Assembly: GCA_947168655.1 (NCBI GenBank)
Contig: CAMVMU010000002.1
Span: forward strand, 15,561 to 79,560
Length of the DNA stretch: 64,000 bases
Reading direction: 5' to 3'
DNA from: an uncultured Oscillospiraceae bacterium
GTDB lineage: Bacteria > Bacillota > Clostridia > Oscillospirales > Oscillospiraceae
The position numbers and the translations under genes were made by a program. This document shows positions 21,291-41,880 of this stretch, piece after piece. The notes under the pieces were generated by a model. The model had not been told where the DNA came from. It ran no database searches and saw only the letters and a program-made list of their open reading frames with translations. How positions within the stretch are numbered: the stretch's first letter is position 1; the number at the start of each line of letters is the position of its first letter.

Positions 21291-21884
21291 TTACAGTCCG
21301 ACAATATGCCTGTTCTGAATACAGAAGATGACAAATGAAAGCAGAAGCGCAAACCAGTCAACAAGCATCACAAATCTTACAACGTACAGCACCCATCGGT
21401 CGACAATGCTGACGTCAGCGTCATTCTTTGACGGTGGACTCGTGAAAAACAGCTTGATCTTCGATGGTCCGGCGCCTTTGATGCGGGATAATCCGCCAAA
21501 CGCGATCTTAACGCAGACGATAAGCCCGATAAAGTAAAAGAGCCAGAACCAGATAATGTTAATTCTCGCCAGCAACGCAATAATACCCAGCACAGCAAAA
21601 CACAGGGAGAAGATCAGCGGTGTGCGAAATGAGCCGAAGATGTATACGCCGCTGTTCTCCCGGAAAATCGCTTCGACCCCCGACGCCATCAGGAGCAGCC
21701 AGAAAGAAATGGAGAGCAGAGCGCTGTGGAAACCTCCGATCAGCGTTTTTGACCGCAAAAGGACCCCCATGCCGTAAAAGGGTTCTCTTGTCAGCTTTCC
21801 GAAAAAATGTGTCAGCAGCGCAATGACAATGATCAGCGTGATCAGCGTCGCTGTCGTTTTTGTTGCATTTCGTACCGTAGTCAT
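21291..21884 (-). CDS. Hypothetical multi-pass membrane protein
   Basis: About five hydrophobic segments; ATGA overlap with the upstream GTPase gene. Confidence 0.75.
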   Translation of the reverse strand: MTTVRNATKTTATLITLIIVIALLTHFFGKLTREPFYGMGVLLRSKTLIGGFHSALLSISFWLLLMASGVEAIFRENSGVYIFGSFRTPLIFSLCFAVLGIIALLARINIIWFWLFYFIGLIVCVKIAFGGLSRIKGAGPSKIKLFFTSPPSKNDADVSIVDRWVLYVVRFVMLVDWFALLLSFVIFCIQNRHIVGL

Positions 21885-24215: not shown

Positions 24216-25769
24216 TTACGGTTGCTTCACTATGTTGCGCAAGGGGCAATTGTCGCTGCTCATCAGCCAAAAGACCGGGTCCAAAACTCCCCACGGCTCA
24301 TATTGGCCGTCCTCTACATCGTGTCCCATTGCACTGACGGGGAAGTATCTGATGTTGGTAAACTCCGCCTCGATCAGGTTCACCGCGTTCTCATAGCCGT
24401 GCCCCATAAGGAATGTGCGGCAGACGTCGTTTTGATGCTGTTCAAAGCTCAGCTGCTCCTGGGAATCCACCGCGGGTTTATACGTCGCTCTGATGCGGGG
24501 AAGGCCGATCTCCTTTTTGTACAGGTCAGACTTGGAGATGATAACCGCAACGGGAACAGACGCCGCTTTTGCTGCGTGCTTTCCCTTCACTTCATCCAGC
24601 GAGTTGATAAAGTTGGCGATCGTGTCAGACACATAGTTCGGCGTTGCCGTCGGATCAATCACGAGAACAAACCCCTCGCAGTATCTGAACTGCTGTTGTT
24701 GCATTTCGCTGTCCGCAAAGTCGAACGCCTCGCCCGCAATATCATAGATGGTCATCTGTACCGAGGTTTTTGGCCCGGTCGTGTGGATCATGCTGTACAT
24801 ATTTGCGTTCGTTTCCAGCGTGGATTCGGATCTGCCGGTGTCAAACCAATCCTCAAGATCAGCAAACGCGTCCTCCGGCGTCGCTTCAACAGAAATGTCG
24901 CGGCGACGGCTCAGCCAATCCTTGTATTCATGCCAGAACGCAGCGAGGAACGTCGTCTTTCCTGTTCCGACGCCGCCGACCAGCTGGATGCCGTATTGCT
25001 GAGAACTGCTGGAGAGGAGCTGCGTGTCGCAGAACGGGCAGTGTGCCTCGTAGGCAGACCGTCCTCCCAGAAACGTGGTGGACAGCTCGGTTCCGCAGGT
25101 GCATTTTCTCTTCAGGACGCCGTAGGGTCCCGGAACCAGCTTCTTGTGCGGCAGTCCGCAGGTGGGGCACAGGAAAACAGGAATAACGGATTTGCGCTTG
25201 CAGTTGGGACAGCGATTGTGAATCGATTTGAAAAACAGGACCAGCCGATCGATCAGCCACAGTGTTGAGAAGAAGAGGAAGAAGCCGATCATTCCAACCA
25301 TGATGACCGCGGCAAGCAGGATGGAAAAAATCGCGACCCAGATAAAACCCAGAACCATGGCACAGAAGATCGCAAAGCCGTAGCCGAGGTAAATCCATAT
25401 ATCGATGAACCAGGTGCCCTTCAGCGTTTTGTTCTTCCATGCCGTCAGCTTTTTGCGGTAATCCCCAAGGTTTTCAAAAGCGCCCTTGATGATCTCGCTG
25501 ATCTGATGAAAGCCCGGGCCAAAGCAGTAGTTTCTTTTTACACCCGCCGGGATGTCAGCGCGCTTGTCCACATAGGTGGCATATGGATCGATATTGTCCT
25601 TGACCGACCGTATGAAACTGGAGAGGGACACGAACAAGGCGTATCCGGTACTAATAACAAGTGTGACCGCAGCAAGGATCGAGGCTATCGGCAGGATAAC
25701 GTATCTGATCAGCAGATAGATCAGGTATACAACAATGGCAATAATAACAAGATAAATAATTGCTTCCAT
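24216..25769 (-). CDS. Membrane-anchored Zn-ribbon TRAFAC-like GTPase 2
   Basis: TM helices, CPNC/CPTC/CTC/CPFC, G1 GGVGTGKT, G3 DIAG, G4 SKSD, G5 VSA. Confidence 0.82.
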   Translation of the reverse strand: MEAIIYLVIIAIVVYLIYLLIRYVILPIASILAAVTLVISTGYALFVSLSSFIRSVKDNIDPYATYVDKRADIPAGVKRNYCFGPGFHQISEIIKGAFENLGDYRKKLTAWKNKTLKGTWFIDIWIYLGYGFAIFCAMVLGFIWVAIFSILLAAVIMVGMIGFFLFFSTLWLIDRLVLFFKSIHNRCPNCKRKSVIPVFLCPTCGLPHKKLVPGPYGVLKRKCTCGTELSTTFLGGRSAYEAHCPFCDTQLLSSSSQQYGIQLVGGVGTGKTTFLAAFWHEYKDWLSRRRDISVEATPEDAFADLEDWFDTGRSESTLETNANMYSMIHTTGPKTSVQMTIYDIAGEAFDFADSEMQQQQFRYCEGFVLVIDPTATPNYVSDTIANFINSLDEVKGKHAAKAASVPVAVIISKSDLYKKEIGLPRIRATYKPAVDSQEQLSFEQHQNDVCRTFLMGHGYENAVNLIEAEFTNIRYFPVSAMGHDVEDGQYEPWGVLDPVFWLMSSDNCPLRNIVKQP

Positions 25770-25790: not shown

Positions 25791-28340
25791 TCACTTGTTG
25801 TCCTTTTTTCCCGTATCGGAGCCATTGGATGCTCCACGCGAGAACAGGCGGCCAAAAATAGACGGTGTCTTTTTCTGGTTGTGCAAAGTCTTCGCGTCCT
25901 TCTCAATCTGGGCGAAGTATTGCTGCGCAGGCTTGGACCGAAGGGTTTCGCGCACAGCCGTCATCTCTTTGTCAAACTGCTTGACCGATGCGCACGCATT
26001 TACCAGCGCATCGAAAAGCGCACTGCTCTTTGTTTTTGCGGCGATCTCGATCAAATCTCCCATTACGCGACTCTGTTTCGTCCCGATATACCGTACGGCC
26101 TCGCGGGCGAATCTGTCGGCGTAGAACGGCGTCTTTGCCGCCGCAGTCGCTATGGCTGCAAAAGCCTCTTCAGGCAGCTTTCCATCAAACACTTTGCCAG
26201 TCAGCCGGTCTGCATACGCGTCATTCTTCAGTGACGGGAAGCCCTGGGACACCGCATCACTTAAAAGCGATGTCAGCTTGTTTGCCAGTCTCTTGTCATC
26301 AAGAGCATCCAGAACAAAGAGGTGTGCCGAGTTGACGCATGCCGTTCCCGCCGGTCTGCAGCTCTGGAGCTTGGACGCCAGTTTTCCGGCGTTCTTGTCA
26401 GACAATACAAGGTTTTGATCCAGCACCTTGACGGTGTTCGACAGGTCGATTTCTTTGAGTTCTCTGCAGGAAAGGATCCAATCCAGGAACTTCTCCATCT
26501 CCTGCGTACGGGTAAGATTTTGGGCCTTATATGCCAGAACATCTGAAAAATGTTTTTCCAGATTACAATTCTGGAGCCGTTTATACATGCCCAAAAGGCT
26601 GTTTTCCGACGAGATCACTTCCGGAGCGATCCTGCAGATCAGCTGGATCAGAAATCCAATATAGCTCTGGTCGGCAGCGGTGCTTGCTTCTGCCAGAAGG
26701 GCATCCACAGTCTGACCCTGATCCTGCGCGGCATACAGGGACGCAATCTCTATGGCGCTCTGTCCGTCTCTTGCGCGGTAGAGTGCTTTCGCGCTTTCCG
26801 GCAGGAACTTTCTGACCGCATCGCCGAAGCATTCCCGCCGGTTTTTCAGCGCATCCGCAAGCAATTCGGTGAAGGATGCCCAATCCTCGGCGGAATAAGT
26901 ACGGGCCGCGTCTGCATAGGCGGCGATGACGGGCGGGGAAACGAGGTATTCCACGGCGCCCTTTGCAAACGCGCTCTTTTGAACCGCGCGGTGGAGCTCC
27001 TTCGCGGACGCGCTTTGCGGGCGCAGGAAAAGATTGTCCGCGTAAGAACGGCAGACGATATCATGAAAACACTCCTTTACCGTGCTGTCCCCTACGACCG
27101 GCGCGGTACTTTCAAGCCAGCTCATGGCCGTGAATGCGGAAACGGCGTCCGCTTTCAGGAATCCCGGAATCTCCTGCTTGATCTCCCGGTACAGCTCCTC
27201 AAGAACCGGTGATTTGATCAGCCTGTATTGCCCAAGAATGGTCAGTGCCGGAAGCAGATCCTTCAGCTGCTTGCTTTCGCTGAATTTTGACAGGTTCGTA
27301 TAGGCGGAGAAGAGTTTGAGAACGTCCCCAGTGGGCGCCGAAACGTCGACCGTCTGGAAAAACTCACGGCACAGATATTCGTGGCCCTCATTGAAGGACG
27401 TCACATAGCGGTAATAGGGATTCGTTGCGTCAACACTGACAGACAACGTCTTCGTCCTTCCGTCCAGGACCGCGTACGGAGCGTTGGCCAGCGCCCTGGC
27501 TGCGGCCGTGTTCGTCCTGTCTCTCTCGTCGACGCCTACGATCATGGCGCGGTATCGCTGCTTCTGATTGGGGCTTTGCAGATTGATCTGGGTCTGATAC
27601 TGGCCGCTGAGGTTCACCGTGTATTTGTTTGTGCTGGCAAATTTGTCAAATCGCGTTGCAAAGGAGAGGCCGGATGCCATTCTCGGTGAAAAAGCGCTCT
27701 CGATCGCCGCAATCCACAGCTCAATCTGTTTGGCGTTTTCATCCCGGATTACCAGAAACTTTCTCTCCTCCGCCGGAACCGAGTACTGAGACACGATAAA
27801 CGCAATGGCGTTCATCAAAGCCTCCCGGCGTCCATCGGCGACAAATGCGGCAATATCGTCAAAGGTAATATACCCGATGGTTTCACCGAGATCATTCCTC
27901 TCCGCCAGCGGAGCGGGCGCGTTTTCATAGTAGAACGCCTCACCCTTTTTCTGTGCATCCCAGACGGCGTCGTTGCCAAACGTTTCATAGGGGTAGATAT
28001 CCTCAAACTGGCCCACAAAGATCTGGTTGATGAAATTTCCCGGCCGGTGGGAATAATCTCCCGTCGCCGTTTTGTCAAAGGGGATCGGGTGAAAATTCAA
28101 CAGAAATTTCCCGCCCAGATCCGGTACGGTGAAAAGATATGCGTCATCCATAAAACCGGGATCCGCATAGGGTTCCTTGCTCTGCGCCACGGTATACAGG
28201 AACGGGAGATCCGCCACACCCTCCTCCGTAATGTTATCCGTGCAGGAAAACACCTTAAATCCGCTATTCTTTATGGGGGTTCGTCCCCTCAGGATATCAA
28301 TGCCTTCGCCGCATCTCGTGTATATAAGTTCAGAATACAT
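25791..28340 (-). CDS. GAP1-N2-like GTPase-associated protein with long helical C-terminus
   Basis: N-terminal ELIYTRC..G......GF, R.GNF..Q and LSFAT motifs as recalled for GAP1-N2/GAP1-M; lies between GTPase genes; AGGAGG RBS. Confidence 0.65.
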   Translation of the reverse strand: MYSELIYTRCGEGIDILRGRTPIKNSGFKVFSCTDNITEEGVADLPFLYTVAQSKEPYADPGFMDDAYLFTVPDLGGKFLLNFHPIPFDKTATGDYSHRPGNFINQIFVGQFEDIYPYETFGNDAVWDAQKKGEAFYYENAPAPLAERNDLGETIGYITFDDIAAFVADGRREALMNAIAFIVSQYSVPAEERKFLVIRDENAKQIELWIAAIESAFSPRMASGLSFATRFDKFASTNKYTVNLSGQYQTQINLQSPNQKQRYRAMIVGVDERDRTNTAAARALANAPYAVLDGRTKTLSVSVDATNPYYRYVTSFNEGHEYLCREFFQTVDVSAPTGDVLKLFSAYTNLSKFSESKQLKDLLPALTILGQYRLIKSPVLEELYREIKQEIPGFLKADAVSAFTAMSWLESTAPVVGDSTVKECFHDIVCRSYADNLFLRPQSASAKELHRAVQKSAFAKGAVEYLVSPPVIAAYADAARTYSAEDWASFTELLADALKNRRECFGDAVRKFLPESAKALYRARDGQSAIEIASLYAAQDQGQTVDALLAEASTAADQSYIGFLIQLICRIAPEVISSENSLLGMYKRLQNCNLEKHFSDVLAYKAQNLTRTQEMEKFLDWILSCRELKEIDLSNTVKVLDQNLVLSDKNAGKLASKLQSCRPAGTACVNSAHLFVLDALDDKRLANKLTSLLSDAVSQGFPSLKNDAYADRLTGKVFDGKLPEEAFAAIATAAAKTPFYADRFAREAVRYIGTKQSRVMGDLIEIAAKTKSSALFDALVNACASVKQFDKEMTAVRETLRSKPAQQYFAQIEKDAKTLHNQKKTPSIFGRLFSRGASNGSDTGKKDNK

Positions 28341-28393: not shown

Positions 28394-29494
28394 TCAATCA
28401 ATGAACTTCGCTCTCTTGAACAGCCAGAGGATCGGGTCAAGAACGCGATGGGGCTTGATCTCGGTTGGCAGTGTATAGGCATCCTTGGGGGGTGCTCCAT
28501 AGCTGGAAACGCCAAAGAAATAGTATTCCTTGAAGTGAGAATCCAGCGCATCGATAAAGGCGCCCTCACCGATCTGCTCCAGCCAGTTTCTGATCTCCGC
28601 GTCCACCTGCTTGATCTCCGCCAGGTCTACCATACCGTTTCTTACGGTCAGGCTGCTATTCCTGATCAACGCCTGGGGACCGAACGCGCGGTGGTTCAAA
28701 ATCGTGTCGAACTTGGTCAGCACAACTGCAACGGGGATGTCCAGCATCTTTTTAGATTTGATGCCTCTCGCCGCTTTGATATATGCCGCCACGCTGTTGA
28801 TAACGTCTTCCGCGTTTTTGCTGGTTCCCGCATCGCCGCCGAGGGAATTGCTCATGACATCGGCGTCCACTACACCGCCCCGTCTGATATTGGGGAGAAC
28901 CAGCGGATCGATGGCAAGGATAATCGCCTTGGAGGCATTGATGTATCGGCAAACCGTTGATGAGGGATCCAGGTTGTTCTCGTGATCTTCGCCGGCCCCG
29001 TCAAAAATCGTAAATGTGTACGTGGGGACATCGTTGCCCCGTTTCTTCTGCAGATTCTTGATGAACCAGATCTGAGGCATACTCTCGCCGGATTGGGTTG
29101 CTTCGGGGATCGTATGCTGCTCATAGATCAAATCACAGTTTCTGTTCTGGTGATCCAGAGTGTCCTTTGTCTGATGTCCCAGGGCCAGCCTCAGCCCGGA
29201 CGAGCGCCCCAGCTCATGCAGCATAACGGTGATGTAATTTGTTTTGCCGGAGTTGGAAACGCCGACAATGCTGAACGGGAGGTTCGGTGTCTCGAGGGCC
29301 ATCTTGGGAATGATGCCTCCGCAGGAGGGGCATTTTCTCAGCGTGGCAAATCCTCCGCAGGCAGAATTTTTGCATTTGATGGGTTCACGCGCAAATCTGC
29401 CCGGCGACGTCTCCGTTCCACAGTCGGGACAGACATAGAGTACCTTGCTCTTGTCATACTCGCGGATGCAGTAGGGGCATGTGAATTTTGCCAT
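28394..29494 (-). CDS. Soluble Zn-ribbon TRAFAC-like GTPase 1
   Basis: CPYC/CPDC/C..C/CPSC, G1 GVSNSGKT, G3 DGAG, G4 TKFD, G5 VSS. Confidence 0.85.
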   Translation of the reverse strand: MAKFTCPYCIREYDKSKVLYVCPDCGTETSPGRFAREPIKCKNSACGGFATLRKCPSCGGIIPKMALETPNLPFSIVGVSNSGKTNYITVMLHELGRSSGLRLALGHQTKDTLDHQNRNCDLIYEQHTIPEATQSGESMPQIWFIKNLQKKRGNDVPTYTFTIFDGAGEDHENNLDPSSTVCRYINASKAIILAIDPLVLPNIRRGGVVDADVMSNSLGGDAGTSKNAEDVINSVAAYIKAARGIKSKKMLDIPVAVVLTKFDTILNHRAFGPQALIRNSSLTVRNGMVDLAEIKQVDAEIRNWLEQIGEGAFIDALDSHFKEYYFFGVSSYGAPPKDAYTLPTEIKPHRVLDPILWLFKRAKFID

Positions 29495-29653: not shown

Positions 29654-32600
29654 TCAAATCTTTCCCGAGAAGCCCTGTCTCCACCGGAGCATAATATGAT
29701 CCCCGCTGGAGGTGTCCTCTTCAAACAGGAAGAACTTGCACTTTTTCAGGTATTTAACGGGAATGTCTGTTTTAACCGGATAGGTCTTCCGATATTCGGT
29801 CACGACAGGATCCAGTTCAACAGAGGGAATCCTCATGACCAGCTGAGCATTCTTGTCATCGTGCGATGCGATAAACTGATTCGCTTCGCAAACGCAAAGC
29901 AAAAGCTCGGGCACGTACTCGATCGGTTTATTGCCGCTCAGCTCGATCATCAGCTTCATCCCATCGAAGATCCCATGGGAGACAGACCAAAACAGATTTG
30001 CATTCAGCGGCCGGTCAATTTTCATTTTCTGCGGTTCGGAGATAATCTCTTTCCCGTCCACATTGTAGCAGGTGAAGACCGAAACAAAGAATGCGCTCTC
30101 GTTCACCACAAAATCCTGATAGGGAATATAGCCGTTTTTCCGGTAGCTGTCCAACGAGATTCTCTGGATATCTGCGGATTTTCCGATATCGCCCAGTGCT
30201 GCCCACCTGTTCTCCGATTTTGTGGTTCTGACCGCGCAATAAAAGGCGGCTGCATTAGAGGGGATGGCCCCCGCGAGCCGGATTTTCAGGTCGATCCGGT
30301 AGCTGTTGCCGTTGCGGCCGGAGATCAGACTCTCCTCCAGGACGGTCTCTTTTTTGTCAATCGGACACGAAGTATAGGTATTGACCTCAATGTTGTTCTC
30401 GCTGGCAATCCATTTGCCGCCGGAGGCTGCCAGAACACTGATCTTGCAATAGGCCTCTCTCGGCAGAGCAACCTGTGCGCAGCCGTCATCAGACTTGGAT
30501 TCAGCTAACAGCTGCCCGTTAACCATGACCCGGAGATCGATTCCCCGCTGCTTGACGGACCAGGAGATCTTATAAACGTTGTCCTTGACCTGAGAAGCGC
30601 GAATGGAAAACGAGTCAACCGTCGGCAGCGGCGTGATGACGGTCTCGACACCGGCGCTTCTGTTCCCGCCTTCGTAATTGGCAAGGACCTTGTAAGTGTA
30701 CGTCTTTCCGTATTGCGTGCCGGAATCCTCATAACTGCCGTGGGCCGATTCGGTTAACGTAGCTGACCTGCCATCGCAGATTCGGATCACCGTCGCTCCA
30801 TGGCTGTTATCCGGCGAGTCCCAGGTGATACGCACCCCTGCGCCGCGTTGAGAAACACGGCAGTTTTTTACGTCGGCGTACAGCATGCCGGTCCTGGATA
30901 CCGGCGATGAATACACGTCCCGCCTCACGGTGAATACGGAATATGTATACGTGAGGCCGGGCTTTACACGTTCATCCGTAAAGGATGTGTTTGTCGTTTT
31001 GTCGGCAAGGATATCCCCGTCGTTTTCCGAGGATGCCCCGGTTTTTCCGGTTTTGCGGATCAGCCGATAGCTGACCCCCTGCTCCGTCGAGTGGCCCCAG
31101 CTGACGTTCATCACGCCTTTGCTGGATACGGGAGTGACCGTAATGCTGCCGCTGGGCAGGGGCGCTGTTGCCCGCAGGAACGCCAGTGCCGGCGGATAAT
31201 CCGCGCATTGCATCAGAATCGTGATACATGCGTCGGCTTTTTTTGAGGCGGTATCGCTTCCGGTGGCCGAGAAAAGACGGTCAGCCCTGGCAAGCTCTCC
31301 GGATATTGTCTGCTCAAACTCTGTAACGTTCAGGTTGGGGAATTTCTTAATGATCCCCCCCAGTTCTGCCCGGGCGGTAGAGAACTTGCGTTCATTTATC
31401 AGCTGGCGGAGCCGGTTGATGGGTTCCTTGAGAAGGGCTTCTTCTTTATCGATCTGTTTAGCGAGCCGGTCAGTTTGCACCTTTTCTCCCGGCGCAGCCG
31501 ACCTTGCCTGGAACAGGTACTGTCTGGCCGAATCAAAGTCGCTTTTTCTGAACGCCTCCTCTGCCTTCTGAAAGAACCTTGAGAACAATTCCGCACTGGC
31601 GAAAACGTATCCGCAGTCAGCATAGGGACATTTATCCGCCTGCACCGGAACAAGTTTTCCGCACTTGTCGCACTTTTTGAACAGAGGTTTCCCGCAGTTC
31701 TTACAGGCGTTGGCCTTTTTTGCCTCGGTTTCCGACTCAAACGTACTGATTTGAAAACAGCTGCTGCACTTGATCGTATACTTCCAGACCGGCGGAATGT
31801 AGCCGCAGTTTCCCTCTTTGTTATAGATGGCAAGTGCCTCCTGATAATCCGGGAAGTACTGGCTGATGATCTTGATGCACGGGTCCGCAAACTTGGAATT
31901 CTCCAAAGACTCCGGATCCAAGCGTTTGATCTTTGAGAAAAGGGCAGTTAATTCCTCAGAGCGATAAACCAGATACCGCTCGTATGCGGCGCGGTTTTCA
32001 TCCGAGTTAAAAACGTACTGCTTTGCTGCCGCAGACAGCGATCCGCAGAGTTTGCCCAGATTATCATTTCGCTGCGAGTATCTGCGGGAAGCCGCGTCAA
32101 ATTTCTCCCATATGGATTTGGTGTCGGTGCCCCGGTATTGTGCCGCCGTTTCACCGCCGTCCGAGATATAGGCCGCGAAGGCGTACAGATCGGTAACCAC
32201 GGAAGTATCTGCTCCGTTAGGATTGGGGTCTTTTGTTTTGCGAAGCGCCTCCAGCTCGGAGTAGATGCGGTCCGCATTCGTGGGAAATCTGGGGAACGCG
32301 GCCAGCGGGTCGATGTCGATCACCTCAAAGCCCGCATCTGTATATACCGATTTTACATGATCCGCAGACAGCCGCGTCTTTTTCTTTTGATCACGAATCT
32401 CCGCCATCGTTACCGTGTGCCTGCCTGTCATGGCAAGCAGCTCAACAGCAGCGGAAAGCGCGCTGATTTCTGCTGCGGCTTTCTCATCCGCAAGTGGCTT
32501 GAACGCCGCGGTAATCAGCTTTTTCCCGTCCGGAGACAGTATTTGAGTGGAAATCGTGTTCAAGAAATCGAGCTGCGCCTGCAGGTTGTCTTTCTCAATC

Positions 32601-32734
32601 TGCTGCGTTACGCGGCCAAGGGCGGACCCAAGCTCTGTTTTCTTCTGGTCTATTTTCTTTTGTACTTGCTTGGCGTTGGTTTCCGGTGGGTCAAACGCCA
32701 GCCCCACCAGTTCAAACAAATCAAAATCAGCCAT
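29654..32734 (-). CDS. 1026-aa protein: J-like N-terminus, double Zn ribbon, TPR-like helices, FN3-like repeats
   Basis: CSSC/CKNC/CDKC/CPYADC; FN3-like W...YRLIRK...FTD..VKPG.TYTYSV and YED...YGKTYTYKV. Confidence 0.72.
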   Translation of the reverse strand: MADFDLFELVGLAFDPPETNAKQVQKKIDQKKTELGSALGRVTQQIEKDNLQAQLDFLNTISTQILSPDGKKLITAAFKPLADEKAAAEISALSAAVELLAMTGRHTVTMAEIRDQKKKTRLSADHVKSVYTDAGFEVIDIDPLAAFPRFPTNADRIYSELEALRKTKDPNPNGADTSVVTDLYAFAAYISDGGETAAQYRGTDTKSIWEKFDAASRRYSQRNDNLGKLCGSLSAAAKQYVFNSDENRAAYERYLVYRSEELTALFSKIKRLDPESLENSKFADPCIKIISQYFPDYQEALAIYNKEGNCGYIPPVWKYTIKCSSCFQISTFESETEAKKANACKNCGKPLFKKCDKCGKLVPVQADKCPYADCGYVFASAELFSRFFQKAEEAFRKSDFDSARQYLFQARSAAPGEKVQTDRLAKQIDKEEALLKEPINRLRQLINERKFSTARAELGGIIKKFPNLNVTEFEQTISGELARADRLFSATGSDTASKKADACITILMQCADYPPALAFLRATAPLPSGSITVTPVSSKGVMNVSWGHSTEQGVSYRLIRKTGKTGASSENDGDILADKTTNTSFTDERVKPGLTYTYSVFTVRRDVYSSPVSRTGMLYADVKNCRVSQRGAGVRITWDSPDNSHGATVIRICDGRSATLTESAHGSYEDSGTQYGKTYTYKVLANYEGGNRSAGVETVITPLPTVDSFSIRASQVKDNVYKISWSVKQRGIDLRVMVNGQLLAESKSDDGCAQVALPREAYCKISVLAASGGKWIASENNIEVNTYTSCPIDKKETVLEESLISGRNGNSYRIDLKIRLAGAIPSNAAAFYCAVRTTKSENRWAALGDIGKSADIQRISLDSYRKNGYIPYQDFVVNESAFFVSVFTCYNVDGKEIISEPQKMKIDRPLNANLFWSVSHGIFDGMKLMIELSGNKPIEYVPELLLCVCEANQFIASHDDKNAQLVMRIPSVELDPVVTEYRKTYPVKTDIPVKYLKKCKFFLFEEDTSSGDHIMLRWRQGFSGKI

Positions 32735-32781: not shown

Positions 32782-35037
32782 TCAGTCGTTCCAAGTGTCC
32801 GTATCGGGATTGTCGTCGCCCTCTCCACCGACAGCCTGCATCATGGAGATGTCGGATATGTACGCGTGGGAGAGCAGCTGGCAGTAGTGAGACTCGTGAA
32901 CAAATCCAAACCTCACGTCCACCCGGGATTTCGATGCCTTGAACTTGCTGCCGACCGCTCTGCCGTCTATTTCCACTTCATACTGTCCGCCGTCCGTCAG
33001 CGACATTCTCAGGTGGAAGCGCGGAGCAACGGTGGCCACACTGGCGCCGTCCAGCAGAATGTCGCCGCCATTCTCGGTCAGATGCGCGGAAATCAGGCCG
33101 AGAGAAATCTCCAGATATCCGCCCGGATGAGGGCTGATGGTAGAGGTGTTGATGTCGCATTCGATCTCAAAATCATCTGAAGGATCTATGGAATAGCGAA
33201 CACCCTCGTTCATTTCGCTGATGTTATAGCCATGGAACTCGATATTCTCCTCATTGGCAATGACGTGAACGGTGGGCTCGTTGAACTGCGCTCCGCTTGG
33301 GTGGGTGGCAATGTTGTCATATTTATCCCACTTCACGTTGCTGAACGTAACGGGCTTATATTTGTGAACAACGCTCTGGCCGCTCCTGGTGCCAAGCTGA
33401 AGGCCGACATTGAACCCCTGGTCCGTGTTTTCGCTTGTTACAGGCCGGCCGAACCTGGAGATATCCTCCGGCACTTCCTCACGCCTGATGGGCAGATCAA
33501 CCGTGCCGTCTTCCTGCCGCGCCTGGATATGGATGACGCCGTTCACATCGTAGCTGTACTGGATGCGAATGACCGTACCGATTTTCTCGCCCCTGTTGAC
33601 GTGCTGGATCCCCGTCACCACGTACTTGTAGGTTATCTGGCAGTCCAGCGGGTCCTCACTGTCTCCCTGAAGGACATAGATGGCCAGTTCATTGTTGGAG
33701 TGGGGGGATGTGTAGAACCTGAATTTTTTAGCGGCGCGCACAGGCCGCGGATGATTGGCGGGAATGATGATCTCGTTGTAGTAGCGATTGCCCTCATCAT
33801 TGATGGCGATGATGCCCATTGCGTGGGCAGTGGTCTCACGCAGGGTGAGCATGCTGAGGCTGTTCAGCTTTCTCTCTGCCTTCACCGATACGTGAGAACT
33901 CAAACCGAAGTTCGCTCTGTCGGTGGTCTTCTTTCCGTCAACAACCTTCAGCACCAGCGAGGTATAGTCCTCGTTCGCTTTGGACGACTGAATCGCCGCT
34001 CCCAGCGCAACTGCCTCATCCGGGTTCACGTGGGACAGCGGCTTCTTGTTGAACATCCTCTGCAGATATTCCGGCACCTGCGGCATCCTCGTCGACCCGC
34101 CTACCAGCAGTACGTCCGTCACGTCCTTTTTCGTCAGACCCGCTTCCTCCAGCACCGCAAGGCACAGCGCCCCCGTCCGGTCCAGCAGATCCGCCGTGTT
34201 TTCCTCAAACTCCGCCTTTGTTATCGTCACCGTCGCCTTCCCGTAGTCCGGGAAGGTGGCGGATACTTTCACTGACTGCATGTTCTGCGCCGACAGCTGC
34301 TTCTTCACGCCCTCCGACATGCCGCTGACAATGGACCACAGCTCACTGTCGTTCCGGATGGAAAGATCCGTCTCGTTCTCAAACCGCGCAACCAGGATAT
34401 CCTCGATCCTCGCGTCCCAGTCACGGCCGCCCAGCTTGTGATTGCCCCGGGTCGTGATGGTTGACAGCTCGCCGTTCTTTCCCATATGGACAAGCGTCAC
34501 GTCAAACGTGCCGCCGCCCAGATCATAGACAAGTATATTGGCGTTCTCTCTCCAGTGATTCAGTCCGTAGGCCATCGCCGCGGCGTTGGGCTCGTCGATG
34601 ATCTTCTTCACCTTCAGGCCCGCCTTCTCCGCCGCGCGGATGGTCGCTTCCCGTTCCTTGGAGTAGAAGTAGGCGGGAACCGTGATCACCGCTTCCTTGA
34701 TCGTATCGCCCAGCGTCGCTTCCGCCTCTTCCTTCAGATGCCGCAGCAGCATGGCGGACAGATCCTCTGACGTGTAGGGCTTGCCGCCGATATAGCAATA
34801 CGGCTTCGTCTCGCCCATCTCCCGCTTGAAGGTGGCAACGCAGTCCTCCTCACCGGCATTGTAGGCGTCCTCCGCCTCGCCGCCGAAGATCACCTCGCCA
34901 TCGAGAAACTGGATGACCGACGGCGTCAGTTTGCTCCCCTCGCCGTTGGGGATGATCTGCGGCAGCTTTGTTTTCGGGTCTATGTACGCCACCGCCGAAA
35001 ACGTGGTCCCCAGATCGATTCCCACTGATATTGCCAT
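32782..35037 (-). CDS. Hsp70-family protein A with all-beta C-terminal domain
   Basis: GIDLGTT, TVPAYF, DEPNAAA, DLGGGTFD, LVGGSTRMP, NPDEAVALGAA; no DnaK lid. Confidence 0.9.
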   Translation of the reverse strand: MAISVGIDLGTTFSAVAYIDPKTKLPQIIPNGEGSKLTPSVIQFLDGEVIFGGEAEDAYNAGEEDCVATFKREMGETKPYCYIGGKPYTSEDLSAMLLRHLKEEAEATLGDTIKEAVITVPAYFYSKEREATIRAAEKAGLKVKKIIDEPNAAAMAYGLNHWRENANILVYDLGGGTFDVTLVHMGKNGELSTITTRGNHKLGGRDWDARIEDILVARFENETDLSIRNDSELWSIVSGMSEGVKKQLSAQNMQSVKVSATFPDYGKATVTITKAEFEENTADLLDRTGALCLAVLEEAGLTKKDVTDVLLVGGSTRMPQVPEYLQRMFNKKPLSHVNPDEAVALGAAIQSSKANEDYTSLVLKVVDGKKTTDRANFGLSSHVSVKAERKLNSLSMLTLRETTAHAMGIIAINDEGNRYYNEIIIPANHPRPVRAAKKFRFYTSPHSNNELAIYVLQGDSEDPLDCQITYKYVVTGIQHVNRGEKIGTVIRIQYSYDVNGVIHIQARQEDGTVDLPIRREEVPEDISRFGRPVTSENTDQGFNVGLQLGTRSGQSVVHKYKPVTFSNVKWDKYDNIATHPSGAQFNEPTVHVIANEENIEFHGYNISEMNEGVRYSIDPSDDFEIECDINTSTISPHPGGYLEISLGLISAHLTENGGDILLDGASVATVAPRFHLRMSLTDGGQYEVEIDGRAVGSKFKASKSRVDVRFGFVHESHYCQLLSHAYISDISMMQAVGGEGDDNPDTDTWND
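33801..35030. repeat. 1230-bp direct repeat, copy 1
   Basis: Line-by-line identical to 36261-37490 (offset 2460). Confidence 0.95.
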
Positions 35038-35049
35038 TCTTCTACCTCC

Positions 35050-37497
35050 TTACCAAGTAGGCACCGTACTTGTGTCGTCTTCGTTGTTTCCGTTATCCGG
35101 CATAAAACGCTCCGCATTGGCAAGCCAGGCAGCCGCATTTACAACGTATCGCGCCGTGCCCGCATTGTCGATCCGTTCATCAAAAAGCCGGGTAAAACCG
35201 CCGTCAACCAAAGCCCGTTTTCCGTCCTTTTCATAAAATGCGGTGACGATTTTGGAGTCTGAGCTGAAAATCAAAGGCTCCAGTCCGCCGGCAAGTTTCA
35301 CATTCGATATGGTGATTCCTTCATCGAAAGAAACCAGCCCCGTTGAGATCAAATGATCTGCAATAATACCGGGCGCTCCCTCTCTTTCCTGGATGGCAAG
35401 GATCTGGGTTCCGTAATAGTTGCCGCTGAGGCTGGCGCCGAAGAGCCGCGTCGTTATAAAGTTAGCGTCCTCGATGTACGGGGTATTATCACCCCAGATA
35501 TACAGGCCGTTGCCCTTTTCAAAGAATTTTTTCAGCACCGAATAATGATCTTCCGTCAGATGCAGCCACGAATCGGAAATCACCCAGCACTGGCACATCG
35601 TCTTCAGGGCGGATTTCAGTTCTCCCGCAGATGGGACCTGTTCTCTGATATCCACCTCAAAGCCCTTTTGTTTCAGCGCATTCGTCATTTTATGCAACGT
35701 GTAACTGTCGTGGCACAGATCCAGGATCAGTATGCCGTATCCTTCAAAGCTCCCGTCGGGGGCCAGGTCGAATTCCTCGCCGTCCGGATTGCCAAACTGG
35801 TCTCTCCGGGTTGTGGGAATGTTGCTGATGCCTGCCCATTTTGAGTAAACGGAAAGGGACGAGGCGTTCCTCATGGACGAAGACGATCTGTCCCCCTCCT
35901 CCACAGGCCGGGAGAATCTTGACATGTCTTCGGGTACCTCCTCGCGCTGAATGGGGAGATTGACCACATCGTCCTCCTGCCTGGCCTCAACATGGATCAC
36001 GCCGTTTTGGTCATAACTGTACTGGACCCGGATGCGGGTTTGATTTCTCTGCCGCGGTACGTAGCGAATACCCGAGACCACATAGCGGAACGGGATTTGG
36101 TTATCCAGGGGATTCTCTGACTCGCCCTGAACCACAAAAACCTCCATTTTCGTGCTCTCATCCTTCTTGGTCCGGACATAGTATGACTTTGCGATTTTCA
36201 CCGGCCGGGGATGGTTTGCCGGAATGAGTATGTCGTTGAAATACCGTTTGCCGTCCTGGCTGATGGCGATGATGCCCATTGCGTGGGCAGTGGTCTCACG
36301 CAGGGTGAGCATGCTGAGGCTGTTCAGCTTTCTCTCTGCCTTCACCGATACGTGAGAACTCAAACCGAAGTTCGCTCTGTCGGTGGTCTTCTTTCCGTCA
36401 ACAACCTTCAGCACCAGCGAGGTATAGTCCTCGTTCGCTTTGGACGACTGAATCGCCGCTCCCAGCGCAACTGCCTCATCCGGGTTCACGTGGGACAGCG
36501 GCTTCTTGTTGAACATCCTCTGCAGATATTCCGGCACCTGCGGCATCCTCGTCGACCCGCCTACCAGCAGTACGTCCGTCACGTCCTTTTTCGTCAGACC
36601 CGCTTCCTCCAGCACCGCAAGGCACAGCGCCCCCGTCCGGTCCAGCAGATCCGCCGTGTTTTCCTCAAACTCCGCCTTTGTTATCGTCACCGTCGCCTTC
36701 CCGTAGTCCGGGAAGGTGGCGGATACTTTCACTGACTGCATGTTCTGCGCCGACAGCTGCTTCTTCACGCCCTCCGACATGCCGCTGACAATGGACCACA
36801 GCTCACTGTCGTTCCGGATGGAAAGATCCGTCTCGTTCTCAAACCGCGCAACCAGGATATCCTCGATCCTCGCGTCCCAGTCACGGCCGCCCAGCTTGTG
36901 ATTGCCCCGGGTCGTGATGGTTGACAGCTCGCCGTTCTTTCCCATATGGACAAGCGTCACGTCAAACGTGCCGCCGCCCAGATCATAGACAAGTATATTG
37001 GCGTTCTCTCTCCAGTGATTCAGTCCGTAGGCCATCGCCGCGGCGTTGGGCTCGTCGATGATCTTCTTCACCTTCAGGCCCGCCTTCTCCGCCGCGCGGA
37101 TGGTCGCTTCCCGTTCCTTGGAGTAGAAGTAGGCGGGAACCGTGATCACCGCTTCCTTGATCGTATCGCCCAGCGTCGCTTCCGCCTCTTCCTTCAGATG
37201 CCGCAGCAGCATGGCGGACAGATCCTCTGACGTGTAGGGCTTGCCGCCGATATAGCAATACGGCTTCGTCTCGCCCATCTCCCGCTTGAAGGTGGCAACG
37301 CAGTCCTCCTCACCGGCATTGTAGGCGTCCTCCGCCTCGCCGCCGAAGATCACCTCGCCATCGAGAAACTGGATGACCGACGGCGTCAGTTTGCTCCCCT
37401 CGCCGTTGGGGATGATCTGCGGCAGCTTTGTTTTCGGGTCTATGTACGCCACCGCCGAAAACGTGGTCCCCAGATCGATTCCCACTGATACGCTCAT
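35050..37497 (-). CDS. Hsp70-family protein B with alpha/beta C-terminal domain
   Basis: Same ATPase domain as protein A; different C-terminus (GLYIWGDN, VDGGFTRL). Confidence 0.9.
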   Translation of the reverse strand: MSVSVGIDLGTTFSAVAYIDPKTKLPQIIPNGEGSKLTPSVIQFLDGEVIFGGEAEDAYNAGEEDCVATFKREMGETKPYCYIGGKPYTSEDLSAMLLRHLKEEAEATLGDTIKEAVITVPAYFYSKEREATIRAAEKAGLKVKKIIDEPNAAAMAYGLNHWRENANILVYDLGGGTFDVTLVHMGKNGELSTITTRGNHKLGGRDWDARIEDILVARFENETDLSIRNDSELWSIVSGMSEGVKKQLSAQNMQSVKVSATFPDYGKATVTITKAEFEENTADLLDRTGALCLAVLEEAGLTKKDVTDVLLVGGSTRMPQVPEYLQRMFNKKPLSHVNPDEAVALGAAIQSSKANEDYTSLVLKVVDGKKTTDRANFGLSSHVSVKAERKLNSLSMLTLRETTAHAMGIIAISQDGKRYFNDILIPANHPRPVKIAKSYYVRTKKDESTKMEVFVVQGESENPLDNQIPFRYVVSGIRYVPRQRNQTRIRVQYSYDQNGVIHVEARQEDDVVNLPIQREEVPEDMSRFSRPVEEGDRSSSSMRNASSLSVYSKWAGISNIPTTRRDQFGNPDGEEFDLAPDGSFEGYGILILDLCHDSYTLHKMTNALKQKGFEVDIREQVPSAGELKSALKTMCQCWVISDSWLHLTEDHYSVLKKFFEKGNGLYIWGDNTPYIEDANFITTRLFGASLSGNYYGTQILAIQEREGAPGIIADHLISTGLVSFDEGITISNVKLAGGLEPLIFSSDSKIVTAFYEKDGKRALVDGGFTRLFDERIDNAGTARYVVNAAAWLANAERFMPDNGNNEDDTSTVPTW
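36261..37490. repeat. 1230-bp direct repeat, copy 2
   Basis: Line-by-line identical to 33801-35030. Confidence 0.95.
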
Positions 37498-37536: not shown

Positions 37537-37836
37537 TTACATGGACATTTCTTCCTCTTCCTCTATTTCCTGCTCTTTCATCCCGGAGGCGATGCCCTCC
37601 CAGTTTGTGGGCGTATAGTAAATGTTCGATGAACAATCGCCCTGATCCAGGCTTTCGTATTCCCGCTGCATTTTTACCCGTTCCCCGGAAACAAACCGCT
37701 CAATCGCGGCTTCATCGGTGACGCCCTGATCCCTCAGATTCTCCCGGTAGTTGTCCAGCACGGTTTCCATATCCCGCTCTCTGCTCTCCCGGATTTCGGG
37801 CGTAAGGGGTCTTCTTAAAACTTTAGGTCCATCCAT
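37537..37836 (-). CDS. Small acidic hypothetical protein
   Basis: AAGGAG RBS, co-oriented in the operon, tail EQEIEEEEEMSM. Confidence 0.7.
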   Translation of the reverse strand: MDGPKVLRRPLTPEIRESRERDMETVLDNYRENLRDQGVTDEAAIERFVSGERVKMQREYESLDQGDCSSNIYYTPTNWEGIASGMKEQEIEEEEEMSM

Positions 37837-37925: not shown

Positions 37926-39647
37926 TTAGATCTGCCCGCTGGTCTCAATGCCCGCGAAGAGGTTCTTCGCCTTGTTGAGCTCTTCTTCGGAATAGAGAAC
38001 ATCGGATTCGATGACCGTCTTTGCGGATTCTCCTGTTTGCACGTTTGTGGCGGTCACTTCCAGGCCAACAGTGCTGGAGCGGAACACAACGCGGATAGGC
38101 GCACCCTGGGGCGTGTGGGGCGGGAGCTGCAGATGAACTTCTCCGATACGCTTCACCTTCAGCTCGGGGTCGGTGTACTGCGGATTGCCGTACGCGTCAA
38201 AGGAGGGGGTAACGTGCTTATTCACACGGTCCTCAGACACGTTTTCATAGACGTTCACCACGATCTCGGGCGCGTTTTCCACGCGCGTGCCGTATACAGC
38301 CTCAGCCTCAGCGGGGATCTCATCACCGATGAAGAGGAGGTTGTCGATCATATAGCTGTCATCCGTAACAAAAACGGCCGGACCAAGAGAGCGGGTCAGC
38401 TTATCCTTGACGGCACTGACATCTTCCACATTCTCGATCTTTTTTTCCTGGATCGCCGCCAATGCCTTATCCTGGTCCACGGGCTTATCCTCATCCAGGC
38501 CCATAACCTTTTTATCGTCTTCCGTGAGCTCTCCGCCCTGCTCCACCTTCTCCTGAATGTCGGCAAGCCGCTCATTCCATTCAATAGCGGCAGAGAGGGC
38601 TGCGCCCTTGGCAACGGCCAGGTTGGGCTGCTCAACGCGGACCTTGCCGGGGAAGACCGCTTCCACAGCGTTTCTGATCATCGGCATAAAGGTGGAGCCG
38701 CCCACCAGAAGGACCACGTCCACGTTATCCGGGGTGAAATTAACGTCGGAGAGCAGCTGATGCACAAAGTCCATGGTCTGCTGGACAAGATCCTGGGTCT
38801 GCTCCTCAAACTCCTGCCGGGTCAGTTCGATTCTGGTGCGGTCGCCGTCGTATTTGATCACGTAGCTCTTTTTCTCCAGCGTAGAGAGATCCTTCTTTGC
38901 CTGTTCGACCTGCGCCCGAATCGTGGCTCTCAGCTCGTCATCCATGTCGGAGACTTCGGTGCCGTTTTCCAGAGCGTACTTCTGGCACATGTAATCGAAC
39001 ATGCGGGCATCCCAGTCAATACCGCCCAGACGGTCATTGCCGCCGGTACGGATGACGTCGATCTGCGCCTTTCCGTTGTCATCAACGCAGAAGTCGAACA
39101 GGGTAATATCGAACGTGCCACCGCCCAGGTCATAAACCATGATCTTGCGATTCTCTTTAAACTCGCGCACGCAGTAATTCAGAGCAGCGGCAGTCGGCTC
39201 GTGGACGATATTCAGGACATTTAGTCCGGCAATGATGCCTGCCTGCTTTGTGGCGGCCTTTTCATCATTTCCGAAATATGCCGGGCAGGTGATAACAACG
39301 TTCTCGACGTTGTGGCCCTGTGCGTCGGCGTAGGCTTTCATTCTCTTGAGAATCAGAGATGAAATCGTGATGGGGTCATATTTGACGCCGTCAAACTCAT
39401 AGGTCGGCGCATCGGGCTTGCCGATATACCTCTTTACGAATTCAACGACTTTTTCAGGCTCGATATCCTTCTGGCTCTTTGCGATCTCGCCGACGACCGG
39501 ATCTGCCCCATCTTGAAAATACACGGCGGAAGCGAGAAGATCGCTGCCTTCGTCCTGGTTTGCGATAACCTCCGGCATCCCGTTGTCATCCAGCGTGGTG
39601 ATTACGGAGTAGGTGGTGCCCAAGTCGATTCCATAAACCTTTGCCAT
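37926..39647 (-). CDS. Hsp70-family protein C (divergent, lidless)
   Basis: GIDLGTT, TCPAYF, HEPTAAA, DLGGGTFD, LVGGST, AVAKGAA; AAGGAGG RBS before the ATG at 39647. Confidence 0.9.
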   Translation of the reverse strand: MAKVYGIDLGTTYSVITTLDDNGMPEVIANQDEGSDLLASAVYFQDGADPVVGEIAKSQKDIEPEKVVEFVKRYIGKPDAPTYEFDGVKYDPITISSLILKRMKAYADAQGHNVENVVITCPAYFGNDEKAATKQAGIIAGLNVLNIVHEPTAAALNYCVREFKENRKIMVYDLGGGTFDITLFDFCVDDNGKAQIDVIRTGGNDRLGGIDWDARMFDYMCQKYALENGTEVSDMDDELRATIRAQVEQAKKDLSTLEKKSYVIKYDGDRTRIELTRQEFEEQTQDLVQQTMDFVHQLLSDVNFTPDNVDVVLLVGGSTFMPMIRNAVEAVFPGKVRVEQPNLAVAKGAALSAAIEWNERLADIQEKVEQGGELTEDDKKVMGLDEDKPVDQDKALAAIQEKKIENVEDVSAVKDKLTRSLGPAVFVTDDSYMIDNLLFIGDEIPAEAEAVYGTRVENAPEIVVNVYENVSEDRVNKHVTPSFDAYGNPQYTDPELKVKRIGEVHLQLPPHTPQGAPIRVVFRSSTVGLEVTATNVQTGESAKTVIESDVLYSEEELNKAKNLFAGIETSGQI

Positions 39648-39660: not shown

Positions 39661-40473
39661 TTATTCTGTGACCGGATCATCGCCGGCCTCGATGATTTGA
39701 TTGTCTTCGGTTTCACTGACAGGCGCCTGCCCCTCATAGAGGTAGATGTCCACCATCTCCTTTATGACGGTGCGGTTGCCGATATAGAAGCCAGAGTTAT
39801 AGGATTTTGCCACGGTATCATGCTTTGCGGGGTCATCTGTTGTAACGCGGTTGAGGATCTGGCAGTGCCTCGGATTCCGCCTGTCGCCCGGCTCGCTGCG
39901 CAGCCTTTCCATTCCGTAGGCGTTCAGCAGATCCTCCAGATCCATGAGCATATACCGGATGCTCTTTTTCACCTTCGGCTCAGAAACCTCATTCACCAGG
40001 CCTTCATAATTGTCGTAGATCCTGGCAATTGAGCCGAGAATGTCATCGTAGATCCTGCCCTTGTCTGCCTTGCGGTACTGATCCAGCTCGTCCTGCATGG
40101 CCTTCAGCCGGCCGGCGAACTCGGCGTGATACAGCTTGTGCATCTCCCGGATCTCGGAAAAAATTCGCTGTTCGGTCCCGGCGATGCTCTCAAGGCTGCC
40201 GTTGATTTGCCCCAGGCAGTCCGCGCCGGCGGGGGCAGGCGGTGTCTCCGCTGCAGCAGGCTCCTCCGGCGTTTCACATCCGGCAGGGGGATTCACGTCC
40301 TCCGTGCGGTCGTCCGTCATCGGGGCTTCCGGCGTCTCGGCGGCTTCAGGCGTCTCAGGGGTTTCAGTGCCTTCAGCCTCGGTGCCGGCATCCGGCAGAA
40401 CGTCATCGGCAGGATGCTCTTCGTTGGGGGGAATTACGTCGGTGAACTTCTTTTCTTCTTCCAATGCTCTCAT
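39661..40473 (-). CDS. GrpE-like nucleotide exchange factor with acidic N-terminal extension
   Basis: Coiled coil, then PGDRRNPRHC...V.KSYNSGF.IGNRTVIKEMVDIY matching the GrpE beta domain; adjacent to Hsp70. Confidence 0.72.
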   Translation of the reverse strand: MRALEEEKKFTDVIPPNEEHPADDVLPDAGTEAEGTETPETPEAAETPEAPMTDDRTEDVNPPAGCETPEEPAAAETPPAPAGADCLGQINGSLESIAGTEQRIFSEIREMHKLYHAEFAGRLKAMQDELDQYRKADKGRIYDDILGSIARIYDNYEGLVNEVSEPKVKKSIRYMLMDLEDLLNAYGMERLRSEPGDRRNPRHCQILNRVTTDDPAKHDTVAKSYNSGFYIGNRTVIKEMVDIYLYEGQAPVSETEDNQIIEAGDDPVTE

Positions 40474-41863: not shown

Positions 41864-41880
41864 CTGGCCTCGCCTCCTTA

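What the first reader, a model, noticed from the sequence alone, without database searches (positions are those of the whole stretch)
32782..37497. Tandem Hsp70s with an identical 1230-bp ATPase module but unrelated C-terminal domains
Seen: 33801-35030 and 36261-37490 match on every line compared, including synonymous positions. Identity starts at about codon 3 and stops just after the interdomain-linker equivalent (LRETTAHAMGIIAI). The next ~130 aa (SBD-beta-like) are homologous but clearly diverged, and the last ~200-260 aa are unrelated. Inference: gene conversion or recent module swapping keeps a constant ATPase while the substrate-binding and cargo ends vary, as in polymorphic toxins. Recombination between the repeats would delete 2460 bp and leave a single gene with the A-type tail.
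Basis: partly seen in the sequence, partly recalled or inferred. Interest (0 to 1): 0.85.

Follow-up and report, generated by a model that had tools for sequence, protein, structure and literature searches.

The report
Hsp70 engine with swappable cargo modules
Two neighbouring Hsp70 genes in a bacterial island share the same ATP-binding half but carry unrelated end domains; relatives show four such ends shuffled onto this half, likely by repeated recombination, giving a predicted defence system interchangeable putative recognition parts.

Summary
Confirmed: 33801-35030 equals 36261-37490 exactly (1230 bp, codons 3-412); the substrate-binding beta domains (SBD-beta) are saturated at silent sites and the tails are unrelated. 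The genes lie in a GAP1/double-GTPase Hsp70-GrpE operon, a predicted conflict system (Kaur 2020). Both are lid-less Hsp70s: intact ATPase motifs, SBD-beta, a cargo domain, and an acidic Trp end motif (130 of 134 relatives). Four cargos occur: beta-sandwich (A), GIFT/GATase-like fold (B), vWA and a fourth. Cargo type needs 13 changes on the ATPase tree but only 3 on the SBD-beta tree, so SBD-beta plus cargo is the swapped unit. Homogenised ATPase pairs recur in a distant B+vWA tandem (1157 bp exact) and, by graph shape, in an allele 9% different from the window; three other tandems are only 68-74% alike. Best reading: repeated recombination keeps one ATPase while modules swap or drop out. Caveats: this is a short-read MAG, so a few percent of real differences may be masked; no long-read or isolate tandem was found; the cargos look like binding modules, not toxins. 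The scan noted this system elsewhere (e1-4372523), not this feature.

The parts
35050..37497 (-). Hsp70-B (815 aa): ATPase + SBD-beta + GIFT/GATase-like cargo + Trp end motif; accessory, upstream gene
   Evidence: (PF00012 E 1e-107)
32782..35037 (-). Hsp70-A (751 aa): same ATPase + diverged SBD-beta + beta-sandwich cargo + DTDTWND end; terminal gene before the FNIII protein
36261..37490 (-). Repeat copy in Hsp70-B, codons 3-412 (ATPase, 45-residue insert, linker, first SBD strand)
33801..35030 (-). Repeat copy in Hsp70-A, identical to the above in the assembly
35905..36260 (-). SBD-beta of B (about residues 413-531)
   Evidence: limits approximate
35104..35847 (-). Cargo B (about residues 551-798), IFT52-N/GIFT, class I GATase-like fold; also found standalone behind Cys-rich/TerY-C-like, zinc-ribbon or signal-peptide-like heads
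   Evidence: (5fms Z 18.2, rmsd 2.6 A, 194 aligned; 1t0b Z 17.1)
33442..33800 (-). SBD-beta of A (about residues 413-532)
   Evidence: (aligns to DnaK SBD-beta strands)
32833..33375 (-). Cargo A (about residues 555-735), likely beta-sandwich; relatives sit in subtilase and Fibrobacter-type surface proteins
   Evidence: (features lead: PelX_N, DUF6645); not folded
32785..32820 (-). Acidic C-terminal Trp motif (D-T-W-x-D type) shared by all four cargo classes
   Evidence: 130 of 134; absent from standalone B domains (5 of 120)
35038..35049 (-). 12-nt spacer with GGAGG ribosome-binding site between B stop and A start
37537..37836 (-). 99-aa ORF with acidic end, conserved in close relatives
   Evidence: no family
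37926..39647 (-). Third Hsp70 (HspC, 573 aa), about 35% identical to the shared ATPase, no cargo
39661..40473 (-). GrpE nucleotide-exchange factor
   Evidence: PF01025, 33.5 bits, above cut-off
29654..32734 (-). 1026-aa protein: helical head, zinc ribbons, TPR-like stretch, FNIII repeats; its first ~450 codons were exchanged together with the Hsp70 A gene between alleles
28394..29494 (-). DO-GTPase with N-terminal zinc ribbons
   Evidence: PF19975 E 1.5e-5, below cut-off
25791..28340 (-). GAP1-like protein
   Evidence: GAP1-M E 0.004, below cut-off
24216..25769 (-). Membrane-anchored DO-GTPase
   Evidence: PF19993 35.2 bits, above cut-off
21881..23515 (-). Second membrane-anchored DO-GTPase
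   Evidence: PF19993 27.4 bits, at cut-off

Best explanation
The two genes are lid-less Hsp70s of a predicted GTPase/Hsp70 conflict operon in which one shared ATPase half is likely kept alike by repeated homologous recombination, while the peptide-binding domain and a putative recognition domain travel together as a swappable module. Shown: identical ATPase halves in the assembly; four cargo types across relatives; cargo follows the SBD-beta tree, not the ATPase tree; B always lies first and is followed by another ATPase gene (window plus 4 of 4 other loci). Inferred genetics: a B module entered upstream of the resident terminal gene and took the resident ATPase (it nests among A-type ATPases, 94% to the nearest, but at most 73% to other B ATPases); exchange starts and stops in the most conserved motifs (GIDLGTT and ETTAHAMG) and cannot run into the diverged SBD-beta; conversion keeps the copies alike, and a crossover between them would delete 2460 bp and restore the single A gene. 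Inferred function: an active ATPase matched to the operon's own GrpE and FNIII/TPR partner would drive ATP-gated binding and release by each SBD-beta/cargo pair, so two genes give two input specificities on one engine; the constant Trp end motif would dock all versions on the same partner.
For: Exact 1230-bp repeat with module-edge limits. 111 full-length relatives: tail label needs 13 changes on the ATPase tree, 3 (the minimum) on the SBD-beta tree; B-carrying ATPases rejected as one clade, p=9e-113; no between-class pair reaches 90% in any 40-residue window from residue 421 on, whereas every window before it has such pairs. Independent tandem L017 (B+vWA, ATPase only 74-75% like the window's) has a 1157-bp exact repeat with silent differences at both edges and saturated SBD. 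Run X1: one ATPase path (13.6x and 11.1x) entered from the orf99 side (8.1x) and the B tail (8.2x) and left to B (6.7x) and A (7.1x), 114 of about 1217 bases different from the window; X2 and X3 break at the same edges. That allele matches L056 at 17 of 17 tested sites, and L056 is dS about 0.5 from the window over A SBD and cargo: both alleles have matched copies after long separation. Thirteen ATPase motif columns, including K71, E149, D172 and T177, are 95-100% conserved in each cargo class of 134 proteins. Context matches the HSP70/GrpE theme of Kaur et al..
Against: All homogenised tandems come from short-read assemblies; metaSPAdes masks variants and can spell a repeat from the consensus graph (PMC5411777 passages). 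In the L017 family two residues (48, 95) vary between assemblies but agree within each, which fits conversion and masking equally. Three of five DNA-level tandems are not homogenised: L037 70%, L034 74% (183 bp seen), L063 68% (352 bp seen). No isolate or long-read tandem was found; both isolate loci (L006, L008) have one gene. SBD-beta lies next to the cargo and is more diverged, so its linkage to the cargo could be simple homology dependence without selection. The GC4 excess of the shared ATPase (0.83 vs 0.67-0.75 in other island genes) lies within the spread of 40 single-gene rows. GAP1 and FNIII matches are below Pfam cut-offs. No function of this system has been tested; partner binding is inferred only.
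Confidence: 0.6

Rival explanations
1. Assembly artefact: two moderately diverged ATPase halves, or two strains each with one gene, were merged into one graph edge and written twice.
For: k=55 short-read MAG, 76% complete, 78 contigs; repeat longer than short inserts; variant masking and consensus spelling described for metaSPAdes; run X4 has one contig in the single-gene form.
Against: Collapse is unlikely above about 3% divergence at k=55 and 9% at k=31 in the simulation, while typical B vs other ATPases are 15-30% apart. The B-tail-to-ATPase junction and the ATPase-to-B junction are both present in independent runs assembled by another pipeline, with depths that add up. Diverged tandems were assembled apart without trouble (L037).
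Confidence: 0.1
2. One recent insertion: a B module with ends matching the two conserved motifs integrated once and duplicated the resident ATPase; no continuing conversion.
For: Repeat limits sit exactly in the two most conserved motifs; B never stands alone and always precedes the resident gene; identity is bimodal.
Against: The X1 allele carries the same B+A layout with B tail about 7% and ATPase about 9% different from the window yet a single ATPase path, so matching had to be renewed after the alleles split, or the insertion happened twice.
Confidence: 0.15
3. Neutral by-product: the Hsp70s are dedicated chaperones for the island's own proteins; homogenisation and swapping just follow sequence similarity and carry no selected meaning.
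For: Most loci have a single gene (60 of 70, some truncated); non-homogenised tandems persist; homology-dependent recombination alone predicts a boundary at the diverged SBD.
Against: Four unrelated cargos are held between a conserved SBD-beta and a conserved end motif under purifying selection (dN 0.02-0.03 vs dS 0.5); the A gene and the head of the FNIII protein were exchanged as one block while flanks stayed 99% alike.
Confidence: 0.2
4. Polymorphic toxin: the tails are toxic domains delivered by a constant Hsp70 carrier, perhaps through the operon's TrwB/VirD4-like ATPase.
For: Constant-front, variable-back layout; a coupling-protein-like ATPase heads the operon and a GH-E nuclease with Imm33 lies in it.
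Against: Cargos are GIFT/GATase-like (no conserved Cys at the nucleophile position in alignment A2), vWA and beta-sandwich domains; no toxin family hit in Pfam or NCBIfam; no immunity-like gene follows either gene; no orphan tail cassettes.
Confidence: 0.06

Closest known systems
GAP1-N2-type DO-GTPase conflict systems, HSP70/GrpE theme (Kaur, Burroughs, Iyer, Aravind 2020, PMC7159879; sections 27 and 29 read)
   Same: DO-GTPases with zinc ribbons and membrane segments, GAP1-like gene, FNIII/TPR protein, Hsp70 genes and GrpE in one mobile operon of Firmicutes.
   Different: The text describes a second Hsp70 lacking its peptide-binding domain; it does not mention Hsp70s with variable C-terminal cargo, tandem copies, or conversion (0 hits for 'gene conversion'). 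Figure 6 and its source data were not seen.
DnaK/Hsp70 chaperones
   Same: ATPase fold and motifs, linker and SBD-beta; an acidic aromatic end motif recalls the DnaK and eukaryotic Hsp70 end motifs (recalled).
   Different: No helical lid; a cargo domain in its place; 45-residue insert before the linker; below NCBIfam DnaK cut-offs (351 vs 648 bits). The host's own DnaK-like gene is elsewhere (contig C24).
Polymorphic toxin systems (recalled)
   Same: Constant N-terminal part used as recombination anchor for variable C-terminal modules.
   Different: No toxin domains, no cognate immunity genes, no orphan cassettes; both genes are full length.
CoCoNuT CnuD and Hsp70-McrB fusions (PMC11090510, passages)
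   Same: Hsp70 NBD/SBD units fused to other domains in predicted defence operons.
   Different: Those have degenerate ATPase motifs and are predicted RNA binders; here the motifs are intact and the fused part varies.
Concerted evolution of tandem hsp70 genes in insects and mammals (PMC3071340, PMC5865164; search listing only)
   Same: Gene conversion between neighbouring Hsp70 genes.
   Different: There whole genes are homogenised; here only the ATPase half, with unrelated ends.

Membership tests
GAP1-N2 DO-GTPase system, HSP70/GrpE theme | DO-GTPase genes with zinc ribbons, one or more with membrane segments | tested here: met
   PF19993 35.2 and 27.4 bits (cut-off 27); third gene PF19975 24.9 bits; D-x-x-x-E Walker B visible in all three
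GAP1-N2 DO-GTPase system, HSP70/GrpE theme | GAP1 protein with GAP1-N2, M and C domains downstream of the GTPase | tested here: inconclusive
   GAP1-M E 0.004, 17.8 bits vs cut-off 24; weak in 3 of 5 homologues; no GAP1-N2 hit; position fits
GAP1-N2 DO-GTPase system, HSP70/GrpE theme | FNIII-repeat protein fused to DnaJ or TPR | tested here: inconclusive
   fn3 E 2.6e-4 below cut-off; TPR hits weak in 2 of 5 head regions, best E 2.8e-4; no DnaJ hit
GAP1-N2 DO-GTPase system, HSP70/GrpE theme | HSP70 and GrpE genes in the operon | tested here: met
   three PF00012 genes and PF01025
GAP1-N2 DO-GTPase system, HSP70/GrpE theme | Optional second Hsp70 without peptide-binding domain | tested here: not met
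   Both tandem genes keep SBD-beta; such a gene exists in related locus L048. Optional in the paper.
Canonical DnaK | Intact ATPase motifs | tested here: met
   activity itself not testable
Canonical DnaK | SBD-beta followed by helical lid | tested here: not met
   Model and alignments end DnaK likeness near residue 520; next domain is alpha/beta GATase-like (B)
Polymorphic toxin system | Constant N-terminal part with variable C-terminal module | tested here: met
Polymorphic toxin system | C-terminal module is a toxin with an adjacent immunity gene | tested here: not met
   B is followed by A, A by the FNIII protein
Polymorphic toxin system | Export to a target cell | not testable with these tools
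   TrwB-like gene present; no test of export
GIFT/IFT52-N class I GATase-like fold (cargo B) | Structural match over the whole domain | tested here: met
   Z 18.2, rmsd 2.6 A, 194 residues; no Pfam GIFT hit by sequence

The most novel reading that the evidence does not exclude
An Hsp70-based cassette system: the ATPase half is both the engine and the recombination handle, so populations gain, swap and drop ligand-sensing modules (beta-sandwich, GIFT-like, vWA, fourth type) and flip between one-sensor and two-sensor states, each module plugged into the GTPase/FNIII defence complex by a shared Trp end motif. It would be a diversity-generating immune receptor built from a chaperone.
Probability: 0.3. 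Interest if true: 0.82.

Novelty: new variant of a known kind. Interest (0 to 1): 0.6.

Why it matters
Hsp70s are treated as fixed three-part machines (ATPase, peptide-binding domain, lid). Here the lid is replaced by one of four unrelated domains, and the peptide-binding domain moves with its cargo across ATPase lineages. The window is a natural controlled pair: same ATPase, two outputs. That makes two open questions directly testable: what the Hsp70s of the untested GTPase conflict systems bind, and whether an Hsp70 ATPase can allosterically drive foreign SBD/cargo modules without a lid.

Tried and rejected
Single-sequence fold of cargo B: pLDDT 34, not used. Cargo A was not folded (both jobs spent); PDB sequence search gave nothing, so its beta-sandwich label is a lead from features and sequence only. 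Foldseek on the full B model returned only Hsp70 chains. PDB profile search with cargo B alignment: only weak designed Rossmann proteins. A complex prediction of the Trp end motif with the FNIII protein's head and TPR part was not available, so that binding is untested. 0 of 400 same-family genomes carry the B-type family at E 1e-150; none of 5 same-genus genomes matched the island over more than a short stretch. Plasmid collection: no match for SBD+cargo B. No run held half or more of the stretch and none was kept as raw reads, so the window's own reads could not be checked. GC-biased conversion signal: inconclusive. No direct repeat of the tRNA-Val 3' end marks the island. Promoter scan at chance level, 9 vs 9.7. 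PADLOC: no match for either tandem gene. AU test for A-carrying ATPases did not finish. Pairs guessed from equal contig lengths (P0009/P0039 85%, P0013/P0097 73%, P0050/P0076 73%) were not checked at DNA level and are not counted as tandems; two other guessed pairs (P0041/P0051, P0059/P0119) were taken as coincidences. Depth ratios in X2 and X4 hint at mixed one-gene and two-gene forms but contig depth is no share of cells, so this is not used as evidence.

Full report
OBSERVATION. The repeat is real in the assembly: 33801-35030 equals 36261-37490 over 1230 bp, from codon 3 to codon 412 of two minus-strand Hsp70 genes 2460 bp apart. After it, the next 119 codons are homologous but saturated at silent sites (pS 0.75, dN 0.35), and the tails are unrelated. 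The genome is a 1.7-Mb, 78-contig MAG, 76% complete; six pairs of contig ends overlap by 55 nt, which points to a k=55 short-read assembler (SPAdes-like; inference).

CONTEXT. The genes lie in a lower-GC stretch (about 21-47 kb, GC mostly 0.48-0.60 vs 0.58-0.66 to its right) ending near tRNA-Val 46968-47043. Order on the minus strand: HTH, TrwB-like ATPase, 458-aa partner, GrpE, HspC, 99-aa ORF, Hsp70-B, Hsp70-A, FNIII/zinc-ribbon protein, DO-GTPase, GAP1-like, membrane DO-GTPase, Imm33, GH-E nuclease, membrane DO-GTPase. This fits the HSP70/GrpE theme of the GAP1-N2 systems of Kaur et al. 2020 (PMC7159879; I read passages, sections 27 and 29, and searched its 2 held supplement files with no hit for HSP70 or GrpE; Figure 6 and source data not seen). 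GAP1 and FNIII hits are below Pfam cut-offs. The B-type family was found in 0 of 400 other same-family genomes.

ANATOMY. Both proteins align with DnaK through ATPase and SBD-beta only; there is no lid. Thirteen ATPase motif columns are 95-100% conserved in each cargo class of 134 full-length relatives. Cargo B matches IFT52-N/GIFT and ThuA-like class I GATase folds (Z 18.2, rmsd 2.6 A, 194 residues; Z 17.1, model mean pLDDT 65, mostly 70-90 in this domain) and occurs standalone: of the best 120 shorter hits only 4 had SBD-like sequence, the rest having Cys-rich, zinc-ribbon or signal-peptide-like heads (TerY-C hit in P0180). Cargo A has 48 hits, several in subtilase or Fibrobacter-type surface proteins; its beta-sandwich label rests on a feature search and sequence pattern. 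Among the best 120 of 345 relatives, tails clustered as vWA 51, A 50, B 15, a fourth type 2, and 2 truncated or odd; 'YfaP/DUF2135-like' for the fourth is recalled, with no library hit. 130 of 134 full-length proteins end in an acidic Trp motif whatever the cargo, against 5 of 120 standalone B hits, 2 of which are fragments of Hsp70-B genes. So the cargo is inserted between SBD-beta and a constant end motif. A Trp end motif that docks a J-protein on its partner is known in the Atc system (bioRxiv 10.64898/2026.09.07.749886, abstract only); that is an analogy. The column matching DnaK's central groove Phe is F/Y in A and vWA but mostly V or Q in B (DnaK role recalled), a hint of different clients.

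WHAT IS SWAPPED. On 111 full-length proteins (9 of 120 dropped as partial), cargo type needs 13 changes on the ATPase tree and 3, the minimum, on the SBD-beta tree (quick trees, short SBD alignment). On a reduced set of 76, one origin for B-carrying ATPases is rejected (p-AU 9e-113). The window's B ATPase is 94% identical to its nearest other A-type and at most 73% to other B-types, so the resident A gene was the likely donor.

IS THE IDENTITY BIOLOGICAL? Of 70 loci (73 fetched duplicates removed): 32 show one A gene, 27 one vWA gene, 1 the fourth type, 4 a B gene, 1 has no tail on the contig, 5 are chance motif hits; many are near-copies and some are cut upstream. All 4 B genes are followed by another ATPase gene. 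L017 (B+vWA; ATPase 74-75% like the window's) has a 1157-bp exact repeat; L037, L034 and L063 are 70, 74 and 68% alike in DNA. In Logan contigs of run X1 a single ATPase path at 11.1-13.6x has two entries (8.1x, 8.2x) and two exits (6.7x, 7.1x), and differs from the window at 114 of about 1217 bases while the upstream flank differs at 2 of 1040; the piece tables were cut, so further minor contigs cannot be excluded. X2 and X3 break at the same edges; X4 has a 2767-bp contig joining 33902 to 36376 (net 2460 bp missing) beside B-tail contigs. L056 carries the X1 allele (17 of 17 sites), begins inside the ATPase end, is dS 0.51-0.63 from the window over A SBD, cargo and the first 450 FNIII-gene codons, and dS 0.01 beyond. 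Two alleles that far apart, each with matched copies, imply that matching was renewed after they split. Against taking 100% literally: metaSPAdes masks variants and spells repeats from a consensus graph (PMC5411777, passages); a toy simulation with recalled bubble limits allows hidden divergence of about 2-3% at k=55 and about 5% at k=31, not 9% or more; two residues in the L017 family vary between but not within assemblies. No isolate or long-read tandem was found.

MECHANISM. Shown steps are the layout, the four cargos and the tree conflict. Inferred: exchanges begin and end in the most conserved motifs, homogenise the ATPase, and stop at the diverged SBD-beta; once copies fall to about 70% they escape; a crossover between matched copies deletes B, which explains why B is never last. 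Inferred function: one active ATPase tuned to the operon's GrpE and FNIII partner (the A gene and the FNIII head were exchanged as one block) drives different SBD-beta/cargo inputs in a predicted defence complex. Rivals: artefact 0.10, one-off insertion 0.15, neutral by-product 0.20, toxin cargo 0.06.

NOVELTY. The operon type is known. I found no description of the cargo-bearing lid-less Hsp70s or of half-gene homogenisation in searches of the open-access library, or in the scan's notes; subscription papers and the unseen figure data may hold it. PMC11090510 (passages) describes other Hsp70 fusions with degenerate motifs. Verdict: new variant of a known kind, interest 0.6.

Noticed in passing
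window 23540-23884 and 23884-24198 (-): A standalone GH-E HNH nuclease (PF14410 E 6e-24) and an Imm33 gene (PF09951) sit inside the GTPase operon and are kept in related loci of both A and vWA type.
   Followed up: partly
window 40487-43182 (-): A TrwB/VirD4-like ATPase and a 458-aa partner head the operon in most long loci; not mentioned in the Kaur text searched (0 hits for TraG, VirD4).
   Followed up: partly
L048 4270-6369 (similar hits in L020, L031, L066, L072; remnant in L001): The slot that holds Hsp70-B in the window holds instead a 699-aa fusion of the FNIII protein's ~320-aa head domain to a degenerate ATPase-only Hsp70: an accessory slot with several alternative occupants.
   Followed up: partly
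L056 vs window 31400-33950: Block exchange: 82-94% identity over the A gene's end and the first ~1.3 kb of the FNIII gene, 98-100% beyond.
   Followed up: yes
protein P0306: B-type Hsp70 whose ATPase looks like a different lineage up to the VYDLGGGTFDVT motif, then family-type; a crossover or an assembly chimera.
   Followed up: no
window 44043-46139 (+): Gene with an RNA polymerase alpha C-terminal-like domain fused to an AAA ATPase, divergent from the operon.
   Followed up: no
window 50077-50236 and 60187-60352: Inverted pair of about 160 bp, 77% alike, with similar pieces elsewhere in same-genus genomes; likely a small dispersed repeat.
   Followed up: no
proteins P0123-P0240: A large unnamed family: GIFT/GATase-like domain behind Cys-rich (TerY-C-like), zinc-ribbon or signal-peptide-like heads; 594 hits, no Pfam model for the domain.
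   Followed up: partly
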